Shown: positions 2,468 through 59,616 of the stretch, piece by piece | Position numbering within the stretch: the first letter of the stretch is position 1 | Layout: every line of letters begins with the position of its first letter | Source of the DNA: Thermoanaerobaculia bacterium | GTDB taxonomy: Bacteria; Acidobacteriota; Thermoanaerobaculia; Gp7-AA8 | Length of the DNA: 64,000 nucleotides | NCBI GenBank assembly: GCA_035996815.1 | Contig: DASYJF010000134.1 | Span: 34,096-98,095 of the forward strand | Direction of reading: 5' to 3' | Notes under the pieces: generated by a model | The model's database searches: none | What the model was told of the DNA's origin: nothing | The model's input: the letters and a program-made list of their open reading frames with translations, nothing else | Program-made: the position numbers and the translations under genes

Positions 2468-3252
2468 TGTTCAACAGCGCGAATCGCTGTATCCAGCAAC
2501 AATCCAATCAATCCAATCAACAGCATTCCGGCGACTACGAGGTCGTAGTGTTTGCCGGCGTTGCGGGCGTCGATGATGAGGTATCCGAGTCCGGAGTCGA
2601 CGGCGATCATTTCGGCGGCGACGAGGACGACCCAGGCGATGCCGAAGGCGAGGCGCAGGCCGACAATGATCCGCGGCAGTACGGCGGGGATCATGACGCG
2701 TCTCATCAATTGCGGCGTGGAGAGTCCGAAATTGCGGCCCGCCTGGAGGTACATCGGCGGAACGTTGCGGACGCCGTTCATGGCCGCGACGATGATCGGG
2801 AAGAGTGAGGCCAGAAAAATCAGGAAGATCGGCGCGGCATTGCTGACGCCGAACCAGATCACAGCTAGCGGCATCCAGGCCAGTGGCGAGATCGGTCGGA
2901 GCATCTGAATCAGCGGATTGATCGCTCTTGCCAGTGGCGCGCACCAGCCGAGGAGGAAGCCGAGTGGGATACCGATGACCATGGCGGCGGCGTAGCCTGC
3001 AAAGACGCGCGTGAGCGAGTCGGCGATGTAGTGCCAGAGTAGCGATTTTTCTGACAGAGTGGCGATGGCCTTGGCAACCGCTGTCGGCGTTGGAAAGATT
3101 TTTGTGCCTGACGCTCTTACGGCGATCGACCAGAGGACCAGGATGATCGCAGCCGTGGTGATCGGCAGCAAAAAGCGTTGAAACCACAGAGGCACAGAGG
3201 ACACAGAGATAGCTTTCTCTGTGCTCTCTGTGTCTCTGTGGTGAGTTCTCAT
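2410..3252 (-). CDS. ABC transporter permease (NitT/TauT family, SsuC-like)
   Basis: Multi-TM protein with the EAA-like motif region (MIAVDSGLGYLIIDA). Paralog of 3980-4735. Confidence 0.9.
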   Translation of the reverse strand: MRTHHRDTESTEKAISVSSVPLWFQRFLLPITTAAIILVLWSIAVRASGTKIFPTPTAVAKAIATLSEKSLLWHYIADSLTRVFAGYAAAMVIGIPLGFLLGWCAPLARAINPLIQMLRPISPLAWMPLAVIWFGVSNAAPIFLIFLASLFPIIVAAMNGVRNVPPMYLQAGRNFGLSTPQLMRRVMIPAVLPRIIVGLRLAFGIAWVVLVAAEMIAVDSGLGYLIIDARNAGKHYDLVVAGMLLIGLIGLLLDTAIRAVEQVVSGQWSVGKKQRLTTDH

Positions 3253-4755: not shown

Positions 4756-4860
4756 GCAGTGGAATGGGGATTAGTGGTCAGTGGTCAGTGGTCAGTGGTC
4801 AGTGGTCAGTGGTCCAATGTTCTCTCCTGATCGACTAATCCACTACTCTACTAATCTACC
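4756..4860. repeat. composite heptamer element: 5 tandem GGTCAGT (4776-4815) followed by an ACTAATC-type arm (4816-4860) in the divergent permease/msrA intergenic region
   Basis: Perfect 5x tandem heptamer. The right arm shares TCCTGATCGACTAATC with the element upstream of cysS (12274-12322). Confidence 0.85.
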
Positions 4861-5454: not shown

Positions 5455-5556
5455 GGCAGTGGACTAGTCGATTAGCGGATTCGTAGATCAGAGCGAACTC
5501 GCTTCACTCGCCCACGAATCTACTGATCTACTAGTCCACTAGTCTACTAATCACGG
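5455..5556. repeat. GATTAGT-family heptad hairpin immediately 3' of the msrA stop
   Basis: Arm gcagtggactagtcgattagcggattcgtagatcag and its imperfect reverse complement ...ctgatctactagtccactagtctactaatc. Homologous to 56289-56336 and 59553-59616. Confidence 0.8.
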
Positions 5557-6857: not shown

Positions 6858-8636
6858 ATGGCAAGAGAAAAGAATGGGAGTGGGGTGTGGGGTGTGGGGA
6901 GTGGGAGCATCCTTTTTGCTTTTTCTCCGACACCCCACTCCCTACTCCCCACTCCCCTCCTCGGCATCGCGTTCTTCGTCCTCGCACTGGCCTGCCGGTT
7001 CCTCAACGCGCCGTACGCGTTCGAGGGAGGCAGGCCGCGCATCGCGCCGGTGGACGAGCTGTATCACTGGAAGCGGATGGCGTACTCGGCGGCGCACTTT
7101 CCGCGCGTCCTGGAGCTCGATCGCGACCGCGGAGTCCGCGGCGCGTTTTGTCCATGGCCGCCGTTGTATGACGTGGCTGGCGGCGGCGCGGCGCGATTGC
7201 TCGGCGGCACAACCTCGGGCGAAGTCCTCGCGCGCATCATCTGGTTCCCGCCGATCCTCTTCGCGCTCTTCACCGGGATCGCTGTCTTCATCCTGGCCCG
7301 ACGGAGCGGGACGATGGTGGCGACGATTACCGGCATCGCGCTGGCGACGTCGCCATTTCTCGTGACTACGTCATGGATCGGCAGCATCGATCACCACTAC
7401 CTCGAGCCAGTGCTGACGTTCGCCATCGTCGGAGCGACGTGTCTCGGCATTCGCGCGGTGACACGGCGAGAAAAAATCCGCGCCGGCATTCTCCTCGGCA
7501 TCGCGATTACGGCGGCGATGTTCGTCCAGACCGCACTCCTGATCGCCGCCGCGCTCGCCTTCGCGGTGCTGTTCTTTGCGACGGACGGCATCGCAGCCGC
7601 TTGCGGCTTCAGCATCGCCGCGGTCGCGGTCGCGATCTACCGCCTCACCCGCGATTCCGGCTTTCCCGACAATCAATGGTTCCTCGGCTGGACCCACGCG
7701 ACGCTCTTCGCCGCCGCCGCAATTGCGTGCGCGATCGTCGCCACCCGACGTAGCGCCGGCGCGTGGCGGCGCGTCGTCGCGCTCCTCGCCGGTGGATTGA
7801 TCGCAATCGCGATCCCGACCGTCCGCGCATCGCTCTTCACCGGCTCGCACTTTCTCGGCGGCGACCGATGGCTGCGCACAATTCAGGAGTTCCAGCCGCT
7901 CTTGCGCGCGCGCGGCGACGATCTCTTATCCGACGCCGTCGGCCTCTCCGGCGGCGCGATCCTGGTCTGGTTCCTCGCAATCCGCGCAATCAAAACGCGC
8001 GACAGCGTCCGGCTCACGTTAGCCATCTTCGCGATCACCTACTTCGCGCTGACGATCACCAGCCGCCGCTTCTGGATCGTAGCCATCCCGCTGCTCGCCC
8101 TCGCCGGCGCGATGTACGTTCCGCTGATCGCGCGCAAGCGCCTGGCGATCGTCGCCGCACTTGTCATCGCGCTCCCTCCCCCGCTGCAACTTGCGGGATG
8201 GCTGATGACGCCGCAGTCGATCCCGCCGAATCAGCAGCAGTGGATTCGCGCAACGTCGTTCATCCGCACTCTCCCGCCCGGACGCGTCCTCGGACCGTGG
8301 TCGATGGGGCATTCCATCGACGTCGAAGGAAACCATCCCGTCATCCTCGACAACTTCGGCACGATGCCGGACGCCGCGACGTTCGAACGCGCGCAACAGG
8401 TGTTGCTGTCAACCGATGAGGCGACTCTCGCGCGCTACTGCGACGCGGCAAACGTCCGCTACCTGATCCTCGAACAGCCGCGCTTCGGAATCGCGTCCGC
8501 GAACGCCATCCTCGGCACACGACGAGCAGCGGAGTCGACATGGTGGTGGCGGGTCTGGCGGAGGGAGAATCGGGGAATGTTTCGCCTGATCTGGAGCGAG
8601 CCCGAGCTGAGAATTTACGAGCGACGCGGCCTTTGA
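6858..8636 (+). CDS. GT-C fold membrane glycosyltransferase-like protein (ArnT/PMT/STT3-like); start uncertain (6858 or downstream)
   Basis: About 12 predicted TM helices. A DE motif (APVDELYHW) sits in the first extracytoplasmic loop, followed by a C-terminal soluble domain. The ORF 5' end runs through the G-rich heptad repeat. Confidence 0.55.
   Translation: MAREKNGSGVWGVGSGSILFAFSPTPHSLLPTPLLGIAFFVLALACRFLNAPYAFEGGRPRIAPVDELYHWKRMAYSAAHFPRVLELDRDRGVRGAFCPWPPLYDVAGGGAARLLGGTTSGEVLARIIWFPPILFALFTGIAVFILARRSGTMVATITGIALATSPFLVTTSWIGSIDHHYLEPVLTFAIVGATCLGIRAVTRREKIRAGILLGIAITAAMFVQTALLIAAALAFAVLFFATDGIAAACGFSIAAVAVAIYRLTRDSGFPDNQWFLGWTHATLFAAAAIACAIVATRRSAGAWRRVVALLAGGLIAIAIPTVRASLFTGSHFLGGDRWLRTIQEFQPLLRARGDDLLSDAVGLSGGAILVWFLAIRAIKTRDSVRLTLAIFAITYFALTITSRRFWIVAIPLLALAGAMYVPLIARKRLAIVAALVIALPPPLQLAGWLMTPQSIPPNQQQWIRATSFIRTLPPGRVLGPWSMGHSIDVEGNHPVILDNFGTMPDAATFERAQQVLLSTDEATLARYCDAANVRYLILEQPRFGIASANAILGTRRAAESTWWWRVWRRENRGMFRLIWSEPELRIYERRGL
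6886..6958. repeat. G-rich heptad inverted-repeat element (GGGGAGT/GGGGTGT x4, 25-nt spacer, CCCCACT-type arm)
   Basis: Same family as 1-120. Lies between divergent protease and GT-C genes. Confidence 0.8.
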
Positions 8637-9065: not shown

Positions 9066-10562
9066 ATGTTCGAAGAATTCACATCCGAGCCGATGAAGGC
9101 GCCCATTCTGGAACGATGGTTCGCGCCATCGGTCGCGCCATCGTTCGTCCGTGCGCGATGGATTTGGCTGCGCTGTCTAGGCGTCATCTTCTTCTCCGTT
9201 TTCTACTCGCTCTACTTTCAGATCCACGGCCTGATCGGTCCGCACGGGATCCTGCCGGCAGGGCAATATCTCGACGCGGTTCATCGCGCACTCGGACTGA
9301 AAGCCTACTGGTATGCACCGACGCTGCTCTGGTTCAGCACGAGCGATGCGATGCTCACCGCCATCGTCTGGATCGGGTTCGCGGCGTCGGTCGCGATCAT
9401 CATCAATATCTGGCCGCGCGTTTCGATCACCATCGCCGGCATCTGCTTCCTCTCGTTCGTCGGCGCGGCGCAGGAGTTCGCGGGATATCAATCGGACGGC
9501 ATGCTGCTCGAGGCGGCCCTGCTGTCGATCTTTCTCGCCCCGCGTGGCATTCGTCCGCGGATGGGCATCGATCAGCCGCCGTCGCGCGCGGCCGTCTTCC
9601 TGCTGCAGTGGGAGTGGTTCCGCATCTACTTCGAGTCGGGACTGGTCAAGCTGCTCAGCGGCGAGGAGCAGTGGCGCAACTTCACGGCGATGGACAAGTA
9701 CTACGAGAATGGTCCGCTGCCGTCGTGGATCGGCTGGTACGTGCAGCAGTGGCCGCATTCGTTCCACGCTTTCTCGGCCGGACTGACGCTCTTCGTCGAG
9801 TTGATTGTGGTCTGGCTCCTCTTCGCGCCGCGCAAGAACTCGCTCTGCCGGCTCATCGCATTCGTCATCGTCACGCCGCTGCAGATCGGCATCATCCTTA
9901 CCGCCAACTACGCCTTCCTCAACTACCTGGTGCTGTGCATCGCCATCCTCCTGCTCGACGACTCGATCCTGCGCGGTCCTCTTCCCACGCCGGCGAGCAG
10001 AAAGCCGTCGATCGCTGCCGCGGTGGTCCTGACGACGATCTTTCTCACCTCGATCGCCGCGTTTTTGGTGCCGTCGTTTCCGACCGTCACGCTTCTCGAT
10101 CCGTTCCGAGTCGCGAACCGTTACGGCCTCTTTGCTGTGATGACGCGCAGCCGCTACGAGATCGAGTTTCAGGGGACGCGCGACGGCACGACGTGGATCG
10201 CGTACCCGTTCCGCTACAAGCCACAGGACATTAAGAAAGCGCCCGGACTCTACGCGCCGTACCAGCCGCGATTCGAATGGAACCTCTGGTTCGCGTCGCT
10301 CGGATCGATTCAGGAAAACCAGTGGGTGCTGAACACGGAAGGGCGATTGCTGGAGAACTCAGCTCCCGTCCTGAAACTCTTCGCCGCGAATCCATTCGAA
10401 GGCAAGCCGCCGATCGCGGTGCGTGCGGTCGCGTATCAATACTGGTTCTCAACGACAGCGGAACGCGCCCGCACAGGCGCGTGGTGGCGGCGCGAGCTCC
10501 TCGGAGCGTACGCGCCGGCGGCGACACGGGATGAAGCGGGCGCGATTCGTTTCGGCGATTAG
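9066..10562 (+). CDS. lipase maturation factor (LMF1/DUF1222) family membrane protein
   Basis: Polytopic membrane protein with an N-terminal GLIGPHGILPA-type motif and a C-terminal RYGLFAVMT...FEWNLWF region reminiscent of LMF1. Start chosen at the ATG (MFEEF). Confidence 0.55.
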   Translation: MFEEFTSEPMKAPILERWFAPSVAPSFVRARWIWLRCLGVIFFSVFYSLYFQIHGLIGPHGILPAGQYLDAVHRALGLKAYWYAPTLLWFSTSDAMLTAIVWIGFAASVAIIINIWPRVSITIAGICFLSFVGAAQEFAGYQSDGMLLEAALLSIFLAPRGIRPRMGIDQPPSRAAVFLLQWEWFRIYFESGLVKLLSGEEQWRNFTAMDKYYENGPLPSWIGWYVQQWPHSFHAFSAGLTLFVELIVVWLLFAPRKNSLCRLIAFVIVTPLQIGIILTANYAFLNYLVLCIAILLLDDSILRGPLPTPASRKPSIAAAVVLTTIFLTSIAAFLVPSFPTVTLLDPFRVANRYGLFAVMTRSRYEIEFQGTRDGTTWIAYPFRYKPQDIKKAPGLYAPYQPRFEWNLWFASLGSIQENQWVLNTEGRLLENSAPVLKLFAANPFEGKPPIAVRAVAYQYWFSTTAERARTGAWWRRELLGAYAPAATRDEAGAIRFGD

Positions 10563-12273: not shown

Positions 12274-12322
12274 ATCCTGATCGACTAATCTACTCATCTA
12301 CTGATCCACTGATTTACTATCC
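12274..12322. repeat. ACTAATC-type heptad arm immediately upstream of the cysS ATG
   Basis: tcctgatcgactaatctactcatctactgatccactgatttactatcc; shares a 16-nt core with 4823-4860 upstream of msrA. Confidence 0.75.
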
Positions 12323-44631: not shown

Positions 44632-46185
44632 TCAGACGCTGGCGACAAGGTCGCGCACTCTGCCGCGGATGTCCTCCGGCTCGGCGATAAGGCGGTCGCG
44701 CTCGGCGGCATCGAGGAGGGAACGAAGGGCGCGATACGCGTCGCCGCGATCGGACGTTTCGCGAAGAATGGCGATGGGATCGAGGCCGCGGATCGAGAAC
44801 CATTCGTCGACAGCGATGCGCGTTTCTGCCGGCGTCTCGCGCACGAGCGCGCGTGTGTCGCGCCTGATGGCTCGCGCGCGTGAAATGCGAGGCCAGGCGA
44901 ATGCGAGCAGGATGAGGAGCGCCGCCGCGATGCCGATGAATGGAAGCGACTGGCGGGCGGCTTCGACGGGCGCGTTGCCCGGCGCGGGCGGTGGGTGCGA
45001 CTGCAGCAACGCCGCGTCGGCCGCCTGAACCATCAGCGCTCGCTGTTCGCAACGAAGCTCGCGCCGCACACCGGCCGGCGTCAAGATCTGCGCCGTCAGC
45101 GGCGGGATGACGAACATGCCGGTGCTGTTTGGGAAAATCAGAAACCGCCAGCGCCGCGTCATCACCGCTTCATCGCGCCTCTGCACGCTCACCGCCCCCT
45201 CGGCGATTTGCACGCTTCCGTCGATCGCTTGCGCAAACGATGGCGGCGGCGCGGCGCGAAGGTTCGCGGCGCCGGTCATGATCACGCCGACTGCCACCGG
45301 TCCGCCGTTCTTCTGCACCGGCGCCTCGCATTGCAGCGAGATGTCGCCGACCGCGGCGACGGGCGGCCCGGCCGGAATCGGACGCGCGTCGATTGGTAGC
45401 GGCGACGAGCGGCGCTGCACATCGACGACGCTTCCCTCGAACAGACGCAACGGATTGCCGAAGCCGAGCGGCTTCATGATCTGCGCCTCGATCGCGAGCG
45501 GATCGACGGTCAGCGTGCCGTTGCGCAGTGGAAAAAGCGCCACGCGGCGGATGATCAGCTTCTGCAGCGCCACACCGCCGAGGAAAACCTGCTGCGGCGT
45601 CTGACCGCGAGTGTCCAGTTCCTCGACCCAGAAGTCGGCCAGCTTCGGCATCCGCGCGATCCCGTGTTGCTGCACGTTCGCGGCGTTGTAAATCGTCCAC
45701 GTGACGATGACCTGTTCGCCGGTGAAGACGCTGCTCTTGTCCGCCTCGGCGACGACGAGAATCGGATCGCGTCCGGTGGCTATGAGCTCGTGAAGGATGC
45801 GGATCGGATCATTCGTCCCGGCGGCGAGATCGGGAAGCACCTGAATCGACAGCGGCGCGAGCGTCTCGACGTCTCCGTCCGCACCGTGCAACGTCAACGG
45901 TCCGACGAGGGCTGCGCCGGGATGGATCGGACGCGCGACGTAGCGCAGCACTTTGCGCCGCGACGACTGCCCGTTGATCCACGAGAACTCCGACGACACG
46001 GACGGCGATCCGTCGATGACGAGGTTCTGCAGTGGGAGCTGGAGATTTTCCGCCGAGGCGAAGGCGTCCGTGAGGGTGAGCGTGATGGTGAGGGCGTCGT
46101 CGGTGGAGAGGGTTCGTTTATCGACCTGAAGGTCGCTTGCCATCGCGGGTAGCGCGATTATCAAAAGGAGAAAGGCAATGTTGAA
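44632..46185 (-). CDS. BatD-like protein (Bat operon); 5' end uncertain, ORF continues into a heptamer repeat
   Basis: Last gene of the Bat cluster; BatD-like length with a C-terminal TM. Confidence 0.65.
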   Translation of the reverse strand, partial: FNIAFLLLIIALPAMASDLQVDKRTLSTDDALTITLTLTDAFASAENLQLPLQNLVIDGSPSVSSEFSWINGQSSRRKVLRYVARPIHPGAALVGPLTLHGADGDVETLAPLSIQVLPDLAAGTNDPIRILHELIATGRDPILVVAEADKSSVFTGEQVIVTWTIYNAANVQQHGIARMPKLADFWVEELDTRGQTPQQVFLGGVALQKLIIRRVALFPLRNGTLTVDPLAIEAQIMKPLGFGNPLRLFEGSVVDVQRRSSPLPIDARPIPAGPPVAAVGDISLQCEAPVQKNGGPVAVGVIMTGAANLRAAPPPSFAQAIDGSVQIAEGAVSVQRRDEAVMTRRWRFLIFPNSTGMFVIPPLTAQILTPAGVRRELRCEQRALMVQAADAALLQSHPPPAPGNAPVEAARQSLPFIGIAAALLILLAFAWPRISRARAIRRDTRALVRETPAETRIAVDEWFSIRGLDPIAILRETSDRGDAYRALRSLLDAAERDRLIAEPEDIRGRVRDLVASV

Positions 46186-46288
46186 TGTTGAATGTTGAAT
46201 GTTCAATGTTGAATGAGGAGGCCGAGGGCGTTTCCGCCGTCCCCTCCATCCAACATTCACCATTGAACATTCAACATTCAACATTCGC
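46177..46288. repeat. AATGTTG-heptamer inverted-repeat hairpin between batC and batD
   Basis: (aatgttg)x5 ... loop ... (caacatt)x5 with minor variants. Confidence 0.85.
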
Positions 46289-46296
46289 TTTCCCGC

Positions 46297-46932
46297 CTAC
46301 CACCCCACATGCAACCGCTCGCGAGTCGGCCGGTGCATCCGCGACAACTCTTCCTGCTCCTGCTGCTGCACTGACCGCAACAATCCGTCGACATTCGGTT
46401 CATTCTTCGGCTGCTGCGCTCCGCCCGCCTGCGGCGACGGTTGCGGCTTCTGCTGCGGCTCCGGTCCGTGATCCTGCTGCGATCCGCTTCCGCCGCCCTG
46501 CTGTTTCTGCATGGCCTGTTTGCGGCGAAGGGCGATCTCCAGATTTCGCTTGGCGTCTACGTCGGATGGCCGAATTCGCAGCGCGTCGGTGTAGTCGCGG
46601 ATGGCGTAGTCGAACGCGTTCGCGGAGAGCGCGCTGTTTCCGCGATTGAAAAGCGCGTCGGCGCGCAGCGACGGATCGCCGAGCGCTTTGGCGATCGTCG
46701 ATGATCCCGCCTCGCGATTTCCCGCGGCGATTTGCGATGTGCCGAGGTTGAAGGCGCGGGCGGGAGTGGACGCGATCGAGGTGGCGGTGGCGAATGACTT
46801 CTGCGCCTCGACGTACTTTTTCTGCTTGAACTGCTCCACTCCGCGCGCAGTGGCGGCGTGTGAGTTGGTTTCTCTGGTAATCCGGCCGGCGAACGGCAGC
46901 GTGATGAGGAGCAAAATGGCGGCTAGTTTCAT
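46297..46932 (-). CDS. TPR-repeat protein, BatC-like
   Basis: Signal/TM, TPR repeats, Gln/Pro-rich C-terminus. GGGAGG RBS. Confidence 0.7.
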   Translation of the reverse strand: MKLAAILLLITLPFAGRITRETNSHAATARGVEQFKQKKYVEAQKSFATATSIASTPARAFNLGTSQIAAGNREAGSSTIAKALGDPSLRADALFNRGNSALSANAFDYAIRDYTDALRIRPSDVDAKRNLEIALRRKQAMQKQQGGGSGSQQDHGPEPQQKPQPSPQAGGAQQPKNEPNVDGLLRSVQQQEQEELSRMHRPTRERLHVGW

Positions 46933-46947
46933 CTCCGCCTCCCGCCC

Positions 46948-46974
46948 GCACAGACAAGAGTGTCTGTGCCACAC
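46948..46974. repeat. REP-like palindromic unit GCACAGACAAGAGTGTCTGTGCCACAC (left terminal copy)
   Basis: 8-bp stem CACAGACA/TGTCTGTG with loop AGAG; inverted copy at 47551-47577. Family also at 56499-56525 and 57789-57815. Confidence 0.85.
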
Positions 46975-47194
46975 TCACTTTCGCCTGCGTCACAGGTGCT
47001 GCTCGGACGGCACAAACAATGTGGCACAGACCACAGCTGTCCTAATTGGGTTGAGAAAATGTCGGTTCTCCTGAGTGTCCGAGCCATGTTTGACAGAAAA
47101 GTACGATCGACCTCCTCAGATGCTGTCAGATTGAGTGAGAGTTGAGCGGCTGGAGGGAGTGGTGGTGGACTGAATGGGCCGTAACGCACTGCAA

Positions 47195-47515
47195 GACGGC
47201 GGGTTACACGGTGCGGGACGTCGCGTCCCACGGTGCGGACGTCGCGTCCCACGGTGTGTGACGTCGCGTCCCGCGGTGCGGGCGTCGCGTCCCACGGTGT
47301 GTGACGTCGCGTCCCGCGGTGCGGACGTCGCGTCCCGCGGTGTGTGACGTCGCGTCCCGCGGTGCGGGCGTCGCGTCCCGCGGTGTGTGACGGCGCGTCC
47401 CACGGTGCGGACGTCGCGTCCCGCGGTGCGGACGTCGCGTCCCGCGGTGTGTGACGTCGCATCCCGCGGTGCGGACGTCGCGTCCCACCGTGCGGAGGCC
47501 ACGTCACACGGTGCA
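47195..47515. repeat. tandem array of 13-14 direct repeats of 21/22 bp, each containing the palindrome GGGACGTCGCGTCCC; two alternating subtypes give a 43-bp higher-order period
   Basis: Units cggtgcgg(g)acgtcgcgtccc and cggtgtgtgacgtcgcgtccc alternate. No spacers, so not CRISPR. Confidence 0.9.
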
Positions 47516-47550
47516 AGGATTTAGACCCTGTGCCGCTAATTTGGACAACT

Positions 47551-47577
47551 GTGGGCACAGACACTCTTGTCTGTGCG
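47551..47577. repeat. REP-like palindromic unit (right terminal copy, inverted relative to 46948-46974)
   Basis: Reverse complement equals cgcacagacaagagtgtctgtgcccac. Confidence 0.85.
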
Positions 47578-47590
47578 GGTCCTCGCGCAG

Positions 47591-48550
47591 TCATTCCGCA
47601 CCTCGATTCGCGAGCGACCCGAGGAACATCGCCACGCACGCGAACGCCAGCGGCCATTGGTAGCGCTCGATCGGGACGCGCACGTTGCGCTGCTTCATCG
47701 TCCCGCCGGACGCCGCCAGCGAGTCGAGCGCGTGCTCACCGAACGGATTCGCGTAGAACTTCCCGCCTGTTGCCGACGCGATCTTCTGCAGCGCCTCGGG
47801 GCGCGCGTACGTCGTCACCACCTGGCCGTTGTCGTCGACCAGATCGCCGCCGCCCTCCGGCCGCGGAATCGTGCTGCCGGCCGCCGTGCCGATCAGGATC
47901 GTCGACACCGGCACGCCGCGTTGGGCGAGTTTGGCGACGGTGTCGTCGAGCCGCGTGCTCTGATCCTCGCCGTCGCTGATGACGACGATGTCGCCGCGCT
48001 GCGCGGTGTCGCCCGCCAGCCGCAGCGCGGCCATCAGCGCGACGGAGAGATCGGAGCCGGGATTCGAAACTTCGCCAGCCTGAATCGAATCGAGCAGCGC
48101 CTCGACCGCTTCGTCATCACTCGTCAGCGGCGACACGACCTCGGCGGCCGACTCGAAGACGACCAGGCCGACACGTCCTTGTTGCGCATCGATGATTCGC
48201 TTCGCGATTGCTTTCGCCGCATCGAGCCGCGACGTGCCGACGTCCTGCGCGGCCATGCTCAGTGAGACGTCGATGGCGATCACGCGATTCGATTCGCGCT
48301 GCTCGATCGGAACAATTCGAAACCCAGCCTCGGGACCAGCAAGCGCGATGACGCATCCGAGAAGTGCGATCGCTGCAAGCCACGGCCGCACGGAGCGTAG
48401 CGGATTGGCCACTCCGCGAAGCCGCTCTGAAACGAAACGGCGCGCGATACGGATTCGCTGACGCTCGCGCGCGATGAAGAAGATCAGCGCAACTGGAACG
48501 GCGAGCGCCAGCCAAAGCATCTGCGGGAAACGGAAGGAAATCGCGTTCAC
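47591..48550 (-). CDS. VWA domain protein BatB
   Basis: N-terminal TM pair plus VWA with MIDAS motif DVSLSM. Confidence 0.85.
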   Translation of the reverse strand: MNAISFRFPQMLWLALAVPVALIFFIARERQRIRIARRFVSERLRGVANPLRSVRPWLAAIALLGCVIALAGPEAGFRIVPIEQRESNRVIAIDVSLSMAAQDVGTSRLDAAKAIAKRIIDAQQGRVGLVVFESAAEVVSPLTSDDEAVEALLDSIQAGEVSNPGSDLSVALMAALRLAGDTAQRGDIVVISDGEDQSTRLDDTVAKLAQRGVPVSTILIGTAAGSTIPRPEGGGDLVDDNGQVVTTYARPEALQKIASATGGKFYANPFGEHALDSLAASGGTMKQRNVRVPIERYQWPLAFACVAMFLGSLANRGAE

Positions 48551-48587
48551 GCGAGCCTCCGCAGGCGTAGCGCCGGCGCTACGAGCC

Positions 48588-50318: not shown

Positions 50319-51215
50319 TTATCGCCTTCTCACGGCGCGCTCGCGGAAGAAACGCAGCAGCTCCCGATCGTACGGAATGGCCGTCGAAACGTTGAGGTGA
50401 TCGACGCCGGCCGCGCGGAACCGACGCGTATTTTGCTCGCCGCGCGTCGCCGCGCGTCGCGCAACGTCCGCACGGCGCAGATCGATGAGGCGCAACGCGC
50501 CGGTCTCCGCGTCCGCGACCTGTGCCAGTCCACGCTCCGGGAATCGCTCCTCGCGCGGATCGCCGACCGTGATCGCGACTACATCGTGCCGCCGGTTCAA
50601 TCGCCGCATCGTTCGTTCAAAGTTCTGATCGAGAAAATCGCTGATGACGATGACCACCGCGCGCCGCGTGCTGACCTGCTCGAGGTAACGCGCGGCGCCT
50701 TCCAGATCGGCCACGCCTTTCGGCCCACGCATGGCCGCATAGACGGCCGCGCGGACGATGACCTGCGCGTGCATCCTCCCCCGCCGCGGCGCGATGTATC
50801 CCTGAATTTTGTTTGTGAACAACAGCAGCCCGATGCGATCCGAATTCTGTACCGCCGAAAATGCGAACACCGCGGCCAACTCCGCCGCCACGTCGCATTT
50901 GCGCCAGTCGACCGATCCGAATCCCATCGATCCCGAAACATCGATCGCCACGAGCACGGTCAGGTCGCGCTCTTCCACGAACTCCTTCACGTGCGGCGTG
51001 CCGCTGCGCGCGGTCACGTTCCAGTCGATCGTCCGCACGTCATCGCCCGGCTGATACTCACGCACCTGCGAAAATTCGATTCCTCGGCCATGAAACGCGG
51101 AGTGATAGTCGCCCGCGAATCCGGCGCGAATCAGCCGCGCCGAAAGGATTTCGAGATCGCGCACACGCCGCGTGAGCGGAGCGCGGAAGCGCGGTTTTCG
51201 GGGGCGGAAGAACAT
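50319..51215 (-). CDS. DUF58 domain protein
   Basis: DUF58 core (EFSQVREYQPGDDVRTIDW). Confidence 0.85.
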   Translation of the reverse strand: MFFRPRKPRFRAPLTRRVRDLEILSARLIRAGFAGDYHSAFHGRGIEFSQVREYQPGDDVRTIDWNVTARSGTPHVKEFVEERDLTVLVAIDVSGSMGFGSVDWRKCDVAAELAAVFAFSAVQNSDRIGLLLFTNKIQGYIAPRRGRMHAQVIVRAAVYAAMRGPKGVADLEGAARYLEQVSTRRAVVIVISDFLDQNFERTMRRLNRRHDVVAITVGDPREERFPERGLAQVADAETGALRLIDLRRADVARRAATRGEQNTRRFRAAGVDHLNVSTAIPYDRELLRFFRERAVRRR

Positions 51216-53012: not shown

Positions 53013-53165
53013 CCGTAGCCACGGCTTTGAGCCGTGGGTTAAGGGATCGTCGTGCAGTTGTGAGCCTGCCTCGGCGGGCGATAGAAAGCTTTCTTTCGCC
53101 CGCTAAAGCAGGCTCACAGGAATCAGACCCACCGGACACCCACGGCTCAAAGCCGTAGGCTACGA
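53013..53165. repeat. about 150-bp nested near-perfect palindrome (26-bp outer arms CGTAGCCACGGCTTTGAGCCGTGGGT, inner arms TGTGAGCCTGC, central 26-bp palindrome)
   Basis: Outer arm 53014-53039 is the reverse complement of 53138-53164. Confidence 0.8.
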
Positions 53166-56288: not shown

Positions 56289-56336
56289 AGCAGTGGATTA
56301 GTCGATTAGTAGATTAGTCGATTAGGGTGAACCGCT
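56289..56336. repeat. GATTAGT-family heptad arm directly after the stop of the ligase-like gene
   Basis: gcagtggattagtcgattagtagattagtcgattagg; near-identical to 5455-5490 after msrA. Confidence 0.8.
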
Positions 56337-56498
56337 TCCCCCGAGATCACTGTCTGGCACGATTCGAGCTCTTGCCACAATCGGCCCGAGAGCATCCGGG
56401 AGACGCTGGCGAAATTGAAGCGCGCCGATAATCCCCAAGGGGTCGGCGCGCTTCGTGTTTTTGCGGCAAGCCGCGCAGCGGCGCGTTCGCGCGCGAGG

Positions 56499-56525
56499 CA
56501 CAGACATGAGTGTCTGCGCCACACA
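56499..56525. repeat. REP-like palindromic unit GCACAGACATGAGTGTCTGCGCCACAC (3' of metK)
   Basis: Same family as 46948-46974. Confidence 0.8.
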
Positions 56526-56578: not shown

Positions 56579-57748
56579 CTAAACCGTGACTGCCTCCGCC
56601 TCCACGCCCGCGGCGCTGCGCAGGGTTTCGGCTTTGTCGGTTGCTTCCCAGGTGAACTCCGGCTCGGTGCGGCCGAAGTGGCCGTACGCCGCGGTCTTCT
56701 TGAAGATCGGACGGCGGAGTTTCAGCGAGTCGATGATGCCGCGCGGCGTCATCATGAAATTCTCGCGGACGAGATCGACGATCCGTCCCTGCGAGATGCG
56801 CTCTGTCCCGAACGTGTCGACGTACACCGACACCGGATCGGCCACGCCGATCGCGTACGCCAGCTGCACTTCCACTTCGTCTGCGAGTCCCGAGGCCACG
56901 ATGTTCTTGGCGATGTAGCGGGCCATGTAGCACGCCGAACGGTCGACCTTTGTCGGGTCTTTGCCCGAGAACGCCCCGCCCCCGTGACGGCCGCGGCCGC
57001 CGTAGGTATCGACGATGATCTTGCGTCCGGTCAGGCCGGTGTCGCCCTGCGGTCCGCCGGTGACGAAGCGGCCGGTCGGATTGATGTGGAACTTCGTATT
57101 GGAATCGAGCAGCTCCGCCGGAACGACCGGCTTGATGATCTTCTCGATGATCGCGTCACTCAGATCGCCGTGGCTCACGCTCGGCGAATGCTGGGTCGAG
57201 ATGACGATGGCCGCGGCGCGAATCGGACGCTTCCCCTCGTACTCGATCGTCACCTGTGACTTGCCGTCGGGACGGAGGAAGTCCAGATCGTTCGCTTTGC
57301 GCACTTCCGCGAGGCGGCGGGCCAGCTTGTGCGCGAGCATGATCGGCAGCGGCATCAGCTCCGGTGTTTCGCGGCAGGCGAAGCCGAACATCAGCCCCTG
57401 ATCGCCCGCGCCGCCGGTATCGACGCCCTGCGCGATGTCGGGCGATTGCGGATCGATCGACGACACGACCGCGCACGTCTCGCTGTCGAAGCCGTACTTG
57501 GCGCGGGTGTAGCCGATCTCCTTGATGGTGCTGCGCACGATCGACGGAAAATCGACGTACGTCTTGGTGGTGATCTCGCCCGAGATCATGGCCAGACCGG
57601 TCGTGACGAGCGTTTCGCACGCCACGCGCCCGATCGGATCCTCGGCCAGCACCGCGTCGAGAATCGCATCCGAAATCTGGTCGGCAACCTTATCCGGATG
57701 CCCCTCGGTGACAGACTCCGAGGTGAAGAGAGTTCTATGGATTGACAT
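56579..57748 (-). CDS. metK: S-adenosylmethionine synthase
   Basis: MetK motifs GHPDK, GAGDQG, DTYGG. RBS aggagc. Confidence 0.95.
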
Positions 57749-57788
57749 CGTTAAAAGCTCCTGATTGGAATTGGCGAATCCTAACATG

Positions 57789-57815
57789 GTGTGGCACAGG
57801 CACTCCTGTCTGTGG
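57789..57815. repeat. REP-like palindromic unit (inverted copy) in the metK 5' leader / ubiB-like upstream region
   Basis: Reverse complement equals cacagacaggagtgcctgtgccacac. Confidence 0.8.
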
Positions 57816-59552: not shown

Positions 59553-59616
59553 CAGTGGATTAGTGGATTAGTAGATTCGTGCTTGGCCGCGCCCGAATCT
59601 ACTAATTCACTGCTTC
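59553..59616. repeat. GATTAGT-family heptad hairpin between convergent ubiB-like and lptE genes
   Basis: Arms cagtggattagtggattagtagattcg and cgaatctactaattcactg flank a 15-nt GC loop. Confidence 0.8.

What the first reader, a model, noticed from the sequence alone, without database searches (positions are those of the whole stretch)
46948..47577. Iteron-like tandem array of palindromic 21/22-bp units, bracketed by inverted REP-like elements, inserted between batB and batC
The batB-batC intercistronic space is about 660 bp; neighbouring Bat genes are separated by 0-40 bp. It holds 13-14 head-to-tail copies of a 21/22-bp unit at 47195-47515. Each unit carries the perfect palindrome GGGACG-TCG-CGTCCC. 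Two unit subtypes (cggtgcgg(g)acgtcgcgtccc and cggtgtgtgacgtcgcgtccc) alternate, giving a 43-bp higher-order period. The array is preceded by a markedly lower-GC segment (47041-47190) that contains a consensus TTGACA. The whole block is bracketed by inverted 27-bp copies of a REP-like hairpin (GCACAGACA-AGAG-TGTCTGTGCCACAC at 46948-46974 and its reverse complement at 47551-47577). Direct repeats spaced at two helical turns with internal dyad symmetry, next to an AT-richer region, are the architecture of plasmid iterons and partition centromeres (F sopC has 12 x 43 bp). Here the array lies inside a chromosomal operon and would be co-transcribed with batC/batD as a string of 13 or more small RNA hairpins. 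Possible roles are a protein-binding array, a MITE-like insertion carrying one, or a regulatory RNA hairpin array.
Basis: partly seen in the sequence, partly recalled or inferred. Interest (0 to 1): 0.8.

Follow-up and report, generated by a model that had tools for sequence, protein, structure and literature searches.

The report
Repeat insertion splitting the batB–batC overlap
A block of repetitive DNA, including a 14-unit minisatellite, has inserted exactly where two genes of an uncultured soil Acidobacterium once overlapped by four bases; it seems to be tolerated because a stop-free reading frame bridges the two genes, so it is most likely selfish repeat DNA and not a plasmid-style protein-binding array.

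Summary
The array and its flanking inverted hairpins are real. TRF finds 7.2 copies of a 43-bp period at 47207-47513, flanked by perfect 26-nt inverted arms, and two other metagenome assemblies carry the block unchanged.

Only 1 of 14 units has the full 15-nt palindrome. The batC-batD gap (153 nt) also holds a repeat hairpin.

The operon runs on the minus strand. In every sampled relative (BatB 95-97% aa, about 90% nt) batB and batC overlap by ATGA or GTGA. Here 658 nt sit between two copies of ATGA.

A stop-free 221-codon frame runs from the ATG overlapping the batB stop to a TGA overlapping the batC ATG (P about 0.01). A GGGAGG lies 5 nt upstream of that ATG. This is the layout described for mycobacterial MIRUs.

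The same 21/22-bp unit family forms arrays at two unrelated intergenic loci in related Thermoanaerobaculia. One of those loci has a 138-bp empty site in relatives.

There are no partition or replication genes nearby, no plasmid, phage or Rfam match, no covariation in the unit hairpin, and no consistent orientation relative to transcription.

Verdict: a lineage-specific minisatellite inside a composite repeat insertion with a MIRU-like translational bridge. The iteron or centromere reading is not supported.

The parts
47591..48550 (-). batB (VWA-domain protein, 319 aa); stop TGA at 47591-47593
   Evidence: Pfam VWA_2, VWA and a weak BatA N-terminal match. 100% identical to P0001 and P0002.
47591..47594 (-). 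ATGA copy 1: the batB stop overlapping the ancestral batC start codon, which now starts the bridging frame
   Evidence: Minus-strand sequence. Empty sites in relatives read ...cggaATGAag... or ...ggagGTGAag....
46929..47594 (-). Stop-free bridging frame of 221 codons, running from the ATG overlapping the batB stop to a TGA overlapping the batC ATG
   Evidence: JGI gene calls in L012 and L013. No internal stops, against 4-5 in each of the other two minus-strand frames; P = 0.011 on shuffling the 358 non-array nt; GC3 0.48 in the unique part against 0.78-0.79 in batB and batC. No homologs except ORFs called over sister arrays.
47554..47579 (.). Right REP-like hairpin arm (GGCACAGACACTCTTGTCTGTGCGGG on the + strand), inverted copy of 46945-46970
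   Evidence: 26 nt, 100% complementary. 9-bp stem, -14.9 kcal/mol.
47514..47553 (.). Unique tail between the array and the right hairpin
   Evidence: No homolog in any fetched locus other than the identical copies in L012 and L013.
47207..47513 (.). Minisatellite: 14 units of 21 or 22 bp (43-bp dimer period), consensus CACGGTG(T/C)G(T/G)GACGTCGCGTCC; the last unit (47486) is degenerate and partly inverted
   Evidence: TRF; unit lists; core census; sister arrays in L011, L014, L015 and L016.
46971..47206 (.). Unique lower-GC segment (about 50-57% GC). It contains TTGACA (47090-47095, + strand), a half REP copy (47020-47031) and a weak terminator-like hairpin on the operon strand (47035-47020)
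   Evidence: Composition. No promoter called, one terminator-like site. No homolog anywhere. Rfam hits at chance level only.
46945..46970 (.). Left REP-like hairpin arm (CCCGCACAGACAAGAGTGTCTGTGCC)
   Evidence: An identical 27-nt copy is in L014 at 9237-9263.
46933..46944 (-). 12-nt right outer flank that supplies a Shine-Dalgarno-like GGGAGG (46938-46943) 5 nt upstream of the batC ATG
   Evidence: Minus-strand sequence.
46929..46932 (-). ATGA copy 2: the batC ATG (46930-46932) overlapping the stop TGA of the bridging frame (46929-46931)
46297..46932 (-). batC (TPR protein, 211 aa)
   Evidence: Pfam TPR_1 and TPR_2. Same length as the orthologs, and the N-terminus MKLAAILLL matches theirs.

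Best explanation
The block is a composite insertion of repetitive DNA. It is not a plasmid-type protein-binding array.

Shown:
- The ancestral state of this operon is a 4-nt stop/start overlap between batB and batC.
- In this genome 658 nt now lie between two copies of that ATGA.
- On the operon strand the 658 nt read: 11 nt, a REP-like hairpin, a 40-nt unique tail, a 14-unit minisatellite, a 236-nt unique lower-GC segment, the inverted REP-like hairpin, and 12 nt carrying GGGAGG.
- The minisatellite belongs to a rare family found at three unrelated intergenic loci in a clade of soil Thermoanaerobaculia.

Inferred:
- The array has no sequence-specific cellular role. It grows and homogenises by slippage or unequal recombination in 43-bp register, and it is copied between loci by an unknown route.
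- The insertion survives inside an essential-looking operon because it has the layout described for mycobacterial MIRUs. Ribosomes finishing batB would restart at the overlapping ancestral ATG, which keeps its old SD (GAGGTG). They would translate a stop-free 221-codon junk frame through the whole insert, melting its hairpins and avoiding polarity. They would then terminate on a TGA that overlaps the new batC ATG, just downstream of GGGAGG, and so hand over to batC.
For: Insertion and empty sites:
- Eleven loci from four BatB clusters (95-97% aa, 89-90% nt) all show the 4-nt overlap.
- The filled site has ATGA at both ends.
- The block is identical in L012 and L013.

Bridge:
- The frame 47594->46929 has no internal stops, while the other two minus-strand frames have 4-5 each.
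- P(open) = 0.011 when the 358 non-array nt are shuffled.
- The frame is coupled by ATGA at both ends.
- GGGAGG lies 5 nt upstream of the batC ATG.
- GC3 of 0.48 against 0.78-0.79, and the absence of homologs, argue that the product itself is not under selection.
- The MIRU precedent is described in PMC12548453 and PMC3184786.

Satellite nature:
- Sister arrays lie downstream of DAHP synthase (L011, L016) and upstream of a 191-aa gene (L014, L015).
- At the DAHP synthase locus, relatives L021-L023 have a 138-bp empty spacer against 1043 bp in L016.
- Each array has its own unit variants, yet some exact variants are shared between loci.
- Orientation relative to transcription is inconsistent across the three loci.
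- The same intergenic regions are full of other repeat families: REP hairpins, heptamer hairpins and TGTGAGCC palindromes.

Against a specific function:
- No covariation in the unit hairpin.
- Unit folds are no better than shuffles.
- No Rfam family matches.
- No plasmid, phage or viral match.
- No par or rep genes within +/-10 kb.
Against: - The open frame is a single observation at P about 0.01. It was noticed after the fact, and translation has not been measured.
- The duplicated ATGA does not abut the inverted arms; 11 and 12 nt intervene. It is therefore not a textbook target-site duplication. Selection for a stop and a start could have produced it.
- The nearest empty-site genomes are only about 90% identical in batB, so the block may have been built in several steps. 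Its age is unknown.
- No second copy of the whole element (unique segment plus tail) was found, so mobility of the composite is not shown.
- Only 64 kb of the host genome could be read.
- The unit core (GACG-TCG-CGTC) and the 43-bp dimer period persist across arrays in different genomes. Some constraint, such as a binding protein, could explain that.
- The spacing of about two helical turns fits a protein-binding array.
Confidence: 0.6

Rival explanations
1. The array is a binding platform for a DNA-binding protein, acting as an iteron, centromere or operator array. A dimeric protein would recognise the dyad in each unit, and the roughly 21.5-bp spacing would place all sites on one face of the helix. 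That would nucleate a nucleoprotein complex which regulates or marks this region.
For: - Tandem direct repeats with internal dyad symmetry, spaced at about two helical turns.
- The inner arms GACG/CGTC and the 43-bp dimer period recur in arrays from different genomes and loci.
- In L016 ten units carry perfect 7-8-bp arms, GTGTGACG-TCG-CGTCACA(C).
Against: - No rep, par or regulator gene is linked to the array at any of the three loci.
- No plasmid, phage or viral similarity.
- The palindrome is weak or broken in most units here and in all A-type units of L014.
- The commonest state of the outer pair is a T.C mismatch, in 23 of 43 units.
- Closely related genomes do without the array at this junction and at the DAHP synthase locus.
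Confidence: 0.12
2. The insert is an RNA-level regulatory module inside the bat mRNA. The REP hairpins and the structured array would act as a 3'-exonuclease barrier, a processing site or a partial terminator. That would uncouple batA/B levels from batC/D levels, as REP elements do in enterobacterial operons.
For: - The insert is co-oriented with, and almost certainly co-transcribed with, a tightly packed operon.
- Each REP arm forms a 9-bp-stem hairpin of -15 to -17 kcal/mol.
- The whole insert folds at -332.7 kcal/mol, z = -6.1, with the two arms pairing over a long range.
- A weak terminator-like hairpin with a T-rich tail lies on the operon strand at 47035-47020.
- REP effects on intercistronic mRNA stability are established knowledge; the review PMC3184786 cites them.
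Against: - The low folding energy follows trivially from inverted repeats plus GC-rich quasi-palindromes. Units and dimers score z about 0.
- No covariation.
- The array's orientation relative to transcription is opposite at the other two loci.
- No Rfam family matches.
- A translated bridging frame would melt these structures.
Confidence: 0.15
3. The 221-codon frame is a genuine protein-coding gene, encoding a basic, repeat-rich disordered protein acquired between batB and batC.
For: - The frame is open, which is unexpected (P about 0.011).
- It starts with an SD-preceded ATG and is called as a gene by JGI.
Against: - A 21/22-bp repeat shifts frame at every dimer, so no repeated peptide can be conserved.
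- An exhaustive HMMER search of 1.84 billion representatives finds only ORFs called over sister arrays, plus one repeat-inflated false hit.
- GC3 is 0.48 in the unique part and 0.61 overall, against 0.78-0.79 in the neighbouring genes.
- No Pfam domain.
- At the L014/L015 locus the corresponding frame changes mostly by non-synonymous substitutions.
Confidence: 0.03

Closest known systems
Mycobacterial interspersed repetitive units (MIRUs; Supply et al. 1997, as summarised in PMC12548453 and PMC3184786)
   Same: - Tandemly repeated units sit in the intercistronic region of an operon.
- Comparing filled and empty sites shows a duplicated tetranucleotide.
- An ORF inside the repeat overlaps the flanking genes' stop and start by 4 nt, so translational coupling is kept.
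   Different: - No sequence relationship was tested or is expected, and the phylum differs (Acidobacteriota).
- The repeat is a 43-bp dimer of quasi-palindromic 21/22-bp units, so the frame rotates through the array.
- The element is composite: inverted REP hairpins plus 276 nt of unique DNA.
- The bridge is 221 codons long, not a short ORF.
- Only 3 loci are known, against about 40-50 per mycobacterial genome, and the other two loci are not coupled to genes.
BOX elements of Streptococcus pneumoniae (boxA-boxB(n)-boxC)
   Same: A non-autonomous modular repeat with related inverted terminal modules and an internal module that is tandemly repeated a variable number of times. It is intergenic and transcribed with neighbouring genes (PMC3184786; modular structure from established knowledge).
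   Different: - Here the terminal modules are copies of an independently dispersed REP-like hairpin.
- The other arrays of the family are not bracketed by them.
- No second copy of the whole composite was found.
REP / BIME / REPIN elements
   Same: The 26-27-nt GC-rich hairpin GTGTGGCACAGACA-CTCTT-TGTCTGTGC is dispersed in intergenic DNA. It is found at 4 sites in 64 kb and also in L014, including inverted pairs and sites between operon genes.
   Different: - The two arms are 583 nt apart, not tens of nt as in a REPIN.
- They enclose unrelated DNA.
- Whether a RAYT transposase is present in the genome could not be checked.
F-plasmid sopC centromere and plasmid iterons
   Same: Head-to-tail repeats with a 43-bp period, internal inverted repeats and an adjacent lower-GC stretch.
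   Different: - The setting is chromosomal and inside an operon.
- No sopA/B, parA/B or rep genes lie nearby.
- No plasmid or phage similarity.
- The dyads are degenerate and variable.
- The array is absent from sister species. The resemblance is numerical only.
Bacterial minisatellites / VNTR loci in general
   Same: An intergenic array whose unit number and unit variants differ between orthologous loci (L014 against L015, L011 against L016), with partial within-array homogenisation.
   Different: The same unit family appears at several unlinked loci and shares exact variants between them. This implies that arrays are copied between loci, which ordinary VNTRs are not.

Membership tests
Plasmid iterons / partition centromere (sopC type) | Tandem direct repeats (about 20-43 bp) with internal dyad symmetry | tested here: met
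   TRF period 43, 7.2 copies. Units listed. Dyads are mostly only 4-5 bp.
Plasmid iterons / partition centromere (sopC type) | Linked to cognate rep or parA/parB genes on the same replicon | tested here: not met
   The neighbours are batB and batC. The Pfam-annotated genes +/-10 kb in L012 include no Rep, ParA or ParB family.
Plasmid iterons / partition centromere (sopC type) | Resides on, or is homologous to, a plasmid or phage replicon | tested here: not met
   No blastn match in 72,556 plasmids or 50,697 phages. No pattern match in IMG/VR. The contig carries housekeeping genes such as metK and ksgA.
Plasmid iterons / partition centromere (sopC type) | Units bound by a specific initiator or centromere-binding protein | not testable with these tools
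   Needs EMSA, pulldown or ChIP.
MIRU-like translationally coupled intercistronic repeats | Tandem repeat located between genes of one operon | tested here: met
   The repeat lies between batB and batC, which are co-oriented within a MoxR-DUF58-BatA-BatB-BatC-BatD cluster with 4-nt overlaps or gaps of 4-37 nt elsewhere.
MIRU-like translationally coupled intercistronic repeats | Tetranucleotide direct repeat at a filled site compared with an empty site | tested here: met
   ATGA at 47591-47594 and 46929-46932. There is a single ATGA or GTGA in L002, L005, L007 and L017-L019.
MIRU-like translationally coupled intercistronic repeats | ORF within the element overlapping the flanking genes' stop and start (-4 spacing) | tested here: met
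   The 221-codon frame runs 47594->46929 with no internal stops, P = 0.011. Translation itself was not measured.
MIRU-like translationally coupled intercistronic repeats | Many dispersed copies per genome, typically at start codons | tested here: inconclusive
   Only 64 kb of the host genome is available. Public data show 3 loci. The other two loci are not coupled to start codons.
MIRU-like translationally coupled intercistronic repeats | Sequence homology to mycobacterial MIRUs | not tested
   No MIRU reference sequence was compared. Membership is not claimed; only the working analogy is.
MITE | Terminal inverted repeats | tested here: met
   26-nt perfect arms.
MITE | Target-site duplication directly abutting the inverted repeats | tested here: not met
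   11 and 12 nt separate the ATGA copies from the arms. Only an imperfect CG(C/G)GAGG adjoins them.
MITE | Multiple copies of the whole element | tested here: not met
   The unique segment and the tail have no second copy in the window, in 25 fetched loci, or in plasmids, phages or viral contigs. The rest of the host genome could not be searched.
REP / REPIN | Short GC-rich hairpin dispersed in intergenic regions | tested here: met
   Four full copies in the window (46945, 47554, 56498, 57794), one in L014, and half copies in L002 and L007.
REP / REPIN | Two inverted REPs separated by a short spacer, forming one hairpin (REPIN) | tested here: not met
   The spacer is 583 nt.
REP / REPIN | Cognate RAYT (IS200-like) transposase in the genome | not tested
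Known structured RNA (Rfam) | Match to a curated covariance model | tested here: not met
   Nothing at gathering score in the window. Only E = 2.9-7.7 chance hits in 46850-47680.

The most novel reading that the evidence does not exclude
The composite may be a member of a so far undescribed class of operon-dwelling mobile repeats in Acidobacteriota. Such an element would target ATGA stop/start overlaps and carry its own 'translational bridge', a stop-free frame plus a terminal Shine-Dalgarno and ATGA. That would make it a non-homologous, much larger analogue of MIRUs. In addition, the conserved 43-bp dimer could be recognised by a lineage-specific protein that copies arrays between loci.
Probability: 0.2. 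Interest if true: 0.6.

Novelty: new variant of a known kind. Interest (0 to 1): 0.38.

Why it matters
If the bridging frame is really used, this is an independent example of the MIRU strategy. It comes from an uncultured soil phylum and is far larger than a MIRU. It would show that repeat DNA can colonise the tightest junctions of operons, the 4-nt stop/start overlaps, by rebuilding translational coupling around itself.

It also flags a practical annotation problem. Gene callers turn such arrays into 'hypothetical proteins' (P0121, P0122, P0124, P0125).

The clade is unusually rich in intergenic repeat families: REP hairpins, hairpins built from heptamer repeats, and this minisatellite. That makes it a useful place to study how such elements arise and spread.

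If the frame is not used, the finding is an ordinary selfish repeat insertion.

Tried and rejected
- Assembly artefact: rejected. The block is identical in L012 and L013, which come from different samples. A short-read Logan contig (L001) merely breaks inside it.
- Polyangiaceae hit L010 from the genome-contig scan: rejected as unrelated. It is a strict 21-bp repeat lying in an ORF that reads DVASIEP heptads. Only the 13-nt GC-rich core coincides.
- P0123, a 5126-aa repeat protein at E = 7e-18: rejected. It gives 19 weak 34%-identity stretches against the unique segment, so the score is inflated by repetition.
- Homology between the unique 'leader' here and the leaders of the L011 and L014 arrays: none found.
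- Promoter at TTGACA: no -10 partner found.
- Rfam: nothing.
- Plasmid, phage and viral collections: nothing.
- Compensatory evolution of the unit hairpin. GGGACG/CGTCCC against GTGACG/CGTCAC looked promising in L011 and L016, but the tally shows the mismatch state T.C is the commonest, and L014 has lost the dyad in all A-type units.
- A longer degenerate duplication (GAGGTGCGGAATGA against GAGGCGGAGATGA) and a 7-bp CG(C/G)GAGG repeat next to the arms: considered as alternative target duplications, and neither is convincing.
- IS200/IS605-type PATE with subterminal hairpins: considered. The two hairpins are exact reverse complements, loops included, and are not same-strand look-alikes, so this was not pursued.
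Full report
**What is there**

The region holds a tandem array at 47207-47513. TRF gives a period of 43, 7.2 copies, 89% matches and a score of 444.

The 13-nt core GACGTCGCGTCCC occurs 13 times with at most 1 mismatch (9 exact). All 13 are on the + strand between 47217 and 47486. The rest of the 64-kb window has only four 2-mismatch hits.

Splitting on the spacer CACGGTG gives 14 units of 21 or 22 bp. There are two types:
- a 22-bp type, CACGGTG-TGTGACGTCGCGTCC;
- a 21-bp type, C(A/G)CGGTG-CGG(A/G)CGTCGCGTCC.

The two types mostly alternate, with two breaks. The last unit (47486) is degenerate and partly inverted (I2-I4).

Perfect 26-nt inverted arms lie at 46945-46970 and 47554-47579. Each arm is a 9-bp-stem hairpin.

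GC falls to 0.49-0.57 between 47000 and 47199 and rises to 0.75-0.80 in the array.

- Only the first unit has the full GGGACG-TCG-CGTCCC palindrome. Arm lengths are 6,5,4,3,4,5,4,4,4,5,5,2,5,3.
- The batC-batD gap is 153 nt, not 0-40 nt, and holds a different repeat hairpin.

The block is 100% identical in two other assemblies from different JGI samples (L012, L013). It is therefore real DNA.

**Context**

The genes are on the minus strand. The order is MoxR-type AAA, DUF58 (50319-51215), a 240-aa ORF, BatA, BatB (47591-48550), BatC (46297-46932) and BatD (44632-46143).

Junctions elsewhere in the operon are tight:
- DUF58 to the 240-aa ORF: a 4-nt gap.
- The 240-aa ORF to BatA: a GTGA overlap.
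- BatA to BatB: 37 nt.

The organism is an uncultured Thermoanaerobaculia bacterium (Acidobacteriota), according to the source names of identical and near-identical BatB proteins.

**It is an insertion into a 4-nt gene overlap**

I fetched eleven loci from four BatB clusters, at 95-97% aa and 89-90% nt identity. In all of them the batB stop and the batC start overlap. The sequence reads ...cggaATGAag... or ...ggagTGAag... with a GTG start.

In the window, the minus strand reads ...cgaggtgcggaATGA-[658 nt]-ATGAaactagcc.... ATGA is therefore present at both ends (47591-47594 and 46929-46932). batB keeps its C-terminus and stop codon. batC keeps its normal N-terminus (MKLAAILLL) and length (211 aa).

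On the operon strand the 658 nt are:
- 11 nt;
- a hairpin arm;
- a 40-nt unique tail;
- the array;
- a 236-nt unique lower-GC segment;
- the inverted hairpin arm;
- 12 nt, cgGGAGGcggag, which place a Shine-Dalgarno-like GGGAGG 5 nt upstream of the batC ATG.

The closest empty-site genomes are only about 90% identical in batB, so the insertion cannot be dated as very recent. It may have been built in several steps.

**The bridging frame**

JGI gene callers annotate a 221-aa 'hypothetical protein' here. It starts at the ATG of the first ATGA, which overlaps the batB stop and keeps the old batC SD, GAGGTG. It ends at the TGA of the second ATGA, which overlaps the batC ATG.

This frame has no internal stop. 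The other two minus-strand frames have 4-5 stops each. Holding the array fixed (its minus strand cannot encode stops) and shuffling the 358 non-array nt leaves the frame open in 1.1% of 20,000 trials.

The frame does not look like a native gene:
- GC3 is 0.48 in the unique part, against 0.78-0.79 in batB and batC.
- The 21/22-bp period rotates the frame through the array.
- It has no Pfam domain.
- An exhaustive HMMER search of 1.84 billion representatives returns only itself, two ORFs called over sister arrays, and one repeat-inflated false hit.
- A word-indexed search of 5.8 billion proteins adds one more such ORF.

This layout has four features: an intercistronic tandem repeat, a duplicated tetranucleotide, an internal ORF coupled by -4 overlaps, and a product that seems irrelevant. 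Reviews describe the same layout for mycobacterial MIRUs (PMC12548453 and PMC3184786).

I therefore infer that the insert is tolerated because ribosomes are passed from batB through the bridge to batC by termination-reinitiation. That mechanism is documented for ATGA overlaps generally (PMC6728339, abstract). Translation itself has not been shown.

**The array is one of a small family**

A dimer pattern scan of 185,579 species-representative genomes found only an unrelated coding heptad repeat in a Polyangiaceae MAG. The same scan of JGI metagenome contigs found L011. The protein searches led to L014, L015 and L016.

Together these give three loci:
1. batB/batC: the window, L012 and L013.
2. 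The spacer between DAHP synthase and an M20 peptidase: L011 and L016, whose DAHP synthases are 97.9% identical.
3. Upstream of a 191-aa gene: L014 and L015, whose flanks could be matched by eye along their length, with scattered substitutions.

All of these arrays keep the 21/22-bp units and the 43-44-bp dimer period.

At locus 2, relatives with 93%-identical DAHP synthase (L021-L023) have a 138-bp spacer, against 1043 bp in L016. The array is therefore an addition at that locus too, sitting among other nested repeat elements.

Unit variants are partly array-specific. Examples are GGGACAGGGCGTCC in L011, GACGTCGTGCCC in L014 and GTGTGACGTCGCGTCACA in L016. Yet L014 and L016, at different loci, share exact variants. 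Three arrays also end in a similar degenerate unit, GTAACCGCGCGTCC. Arrays therefore seem to be copied between loci as arrays, by an unknown route.

The unique 'leader' and tail of the window's block have no counterpart anywhere.

**The flanking hairpins**

The hairpins are members of a dispersed REP-like family. Two more copies, with 2-3 mismatches, flank metK at 56498 and 57794. An identical 27-nt copy lies 180 nt from the L014 array, and half copies lie upstream of metK in L002 and L007.

The other arrays are not bracketed by such hairpins. The bracket is therefore a property of this composite, not of the array family.

The duplicated ATGA does not abut the arms, so the block fails a strict MITE test. 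The 583-nt spacing fails a REPIN test.

**Tests of the functional readings**

Protein-binding array (iteron or centromere):
- No Rep or Par family lies within +/-10 kb or at the other loci.
- No plasmid, phage or viral similarity.
- The dyad is weak and variable. All A-type units of L014 have lost it.
- Sister species lack the array.

RNA hairpin array:
- Single units and dimers fold no better than dinucleotide shuffles, with z from -0.24 to +0.32.
- The outer stem pair is a T.C mismatch in 23 of 43 22-bp units, T-A in 12, G-C in 6 and G.A in 2.
- The array is antisense to transcription here and sense at the other loci.
- Rfam finds nothing.
- The strong whole-insert fold (-332.7 kcal/mol, z = -6.1) follows from the inverted arms and the self-complementary array.

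A REP-type effect on mRNA stability, or partial termination at 47035-47020, remains possible and is listed as a rival.

No promoter is called at the TTGACA.

**Verdict**

This is a lineage-specific minisatellite inside a composite, REP-bracketed insertion that split the batB/batC ATGA overlap. It was probably made harmless by a MIRU-like translational bridge.

It works like a MIRU or BOX-type interspersed repeat, but I do not claim membership of any sequence-defined family. The iteron or centromere interpretation is not supported.

Interest is moderate. The kind of element is known, but this variant has not been described. It combines a 221-codon bridge, a quasi-palindromic 43-bp dimer and REP brackets, in Acidobacteriota.

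Noticed in passing
window 46170-46292 (batC-batD spacer); also 3185-3240, 6871-6961, 4773-4859, 5458-5540, 12277-12318, 56292-56325, 59554-59611; L002 11605-11715; L014 7567-7660; L016 7657-7779; L011 1689-1789: Many intergenic regions carry long hairpins whose arms are tandem repeats of a 7-8-nt word: N7 x about 5, a loop, then the reverse complement x about 5. The word differs from locus to locus (AATGTTG, GGGAGTG, AGTGGTC, AGTGGATT, TCAGTGGA, GTTGTCC and others). The AATGTTG hairpin in the batC-batD spacer is shared with L002 (about 90% nt relative) but absent from L007. The same word also occurs at an unrelated locus in L014. The origin and role of these hairpins are unknown; they could be terminators or another mobile family.
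   Followed up: partly
window 56495-56524 and 57789-57815: Two diverged copies of the REP-like hairpin GTGTGGCACAGACA-loop-TGTCTGTGC flank metK (56579-57749, minus strand), one in the 5' leader and one just past the stop. The downstream copy is followed by a second terminator-like hairpin, aaaaaaaGGCACAGACCGAAGCCTGTGCCttt. Half copies persist upstream of metK in L002 and L007.
   Followed up: partly
window 53059-53118; L016 9930-9995: A perfect-centre palindromic element, TGTGAGCC.GC...GCGGGCGAAAGAAAG|CTTTCT...GCGGGCTCACA, is present in the window. In L016 it lies in the same intergenic region as the array, nested inside another long inverted repeat (cggcgtaagaaccgtagccccc...gggggctacggttcttacgccg). 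This is a third dispersed repeat family, shared by these genomes.
   Followed up: no
window 48551-48587 (batA-batB spacer); L011 and L016 intergenic regions; L021 5020-5130: The mini-hairpin GTAGCGCCGGCGCTAC in the batA-batB spacer resembles a second REP family (GCCGCCGAG..GGCGGCGCTACGA) that is abundant in the L011, L016 and L021 genomes.
   Followed up: no
window 46157-46184 (minus strand): The only sigma-70-like promoter match in 46000-48000 (TCAACA-16-GATAAT) lies inside the heptamer hairpin just upstream of batD. It is a consensus match only.
   Followed up: no
L010 4406-4840 (Polyangiaceae MAG CAYJPW010000146.1): A 21-bp x 13 repeat, TCGAGCCGGACGTCGCGTCCA, reads as DVASIEP-type heptads inside an ORF. 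It shares the 13-nt core GGACGTCGCGTCC with the array studied here, apparently by chance.
   Followed up: partly
L012 15335-16407 / L005 14678-15750, compared with L002 and L007: The window's lineage and L005 carry a two-gene insert (a 148-152-aa ORF plus a PIN_12 protein, toxin-antitoxin-like) between the acetyltransferase and carbonic anhydrase genes. L002 and L007 lack it.
   Followed up: no
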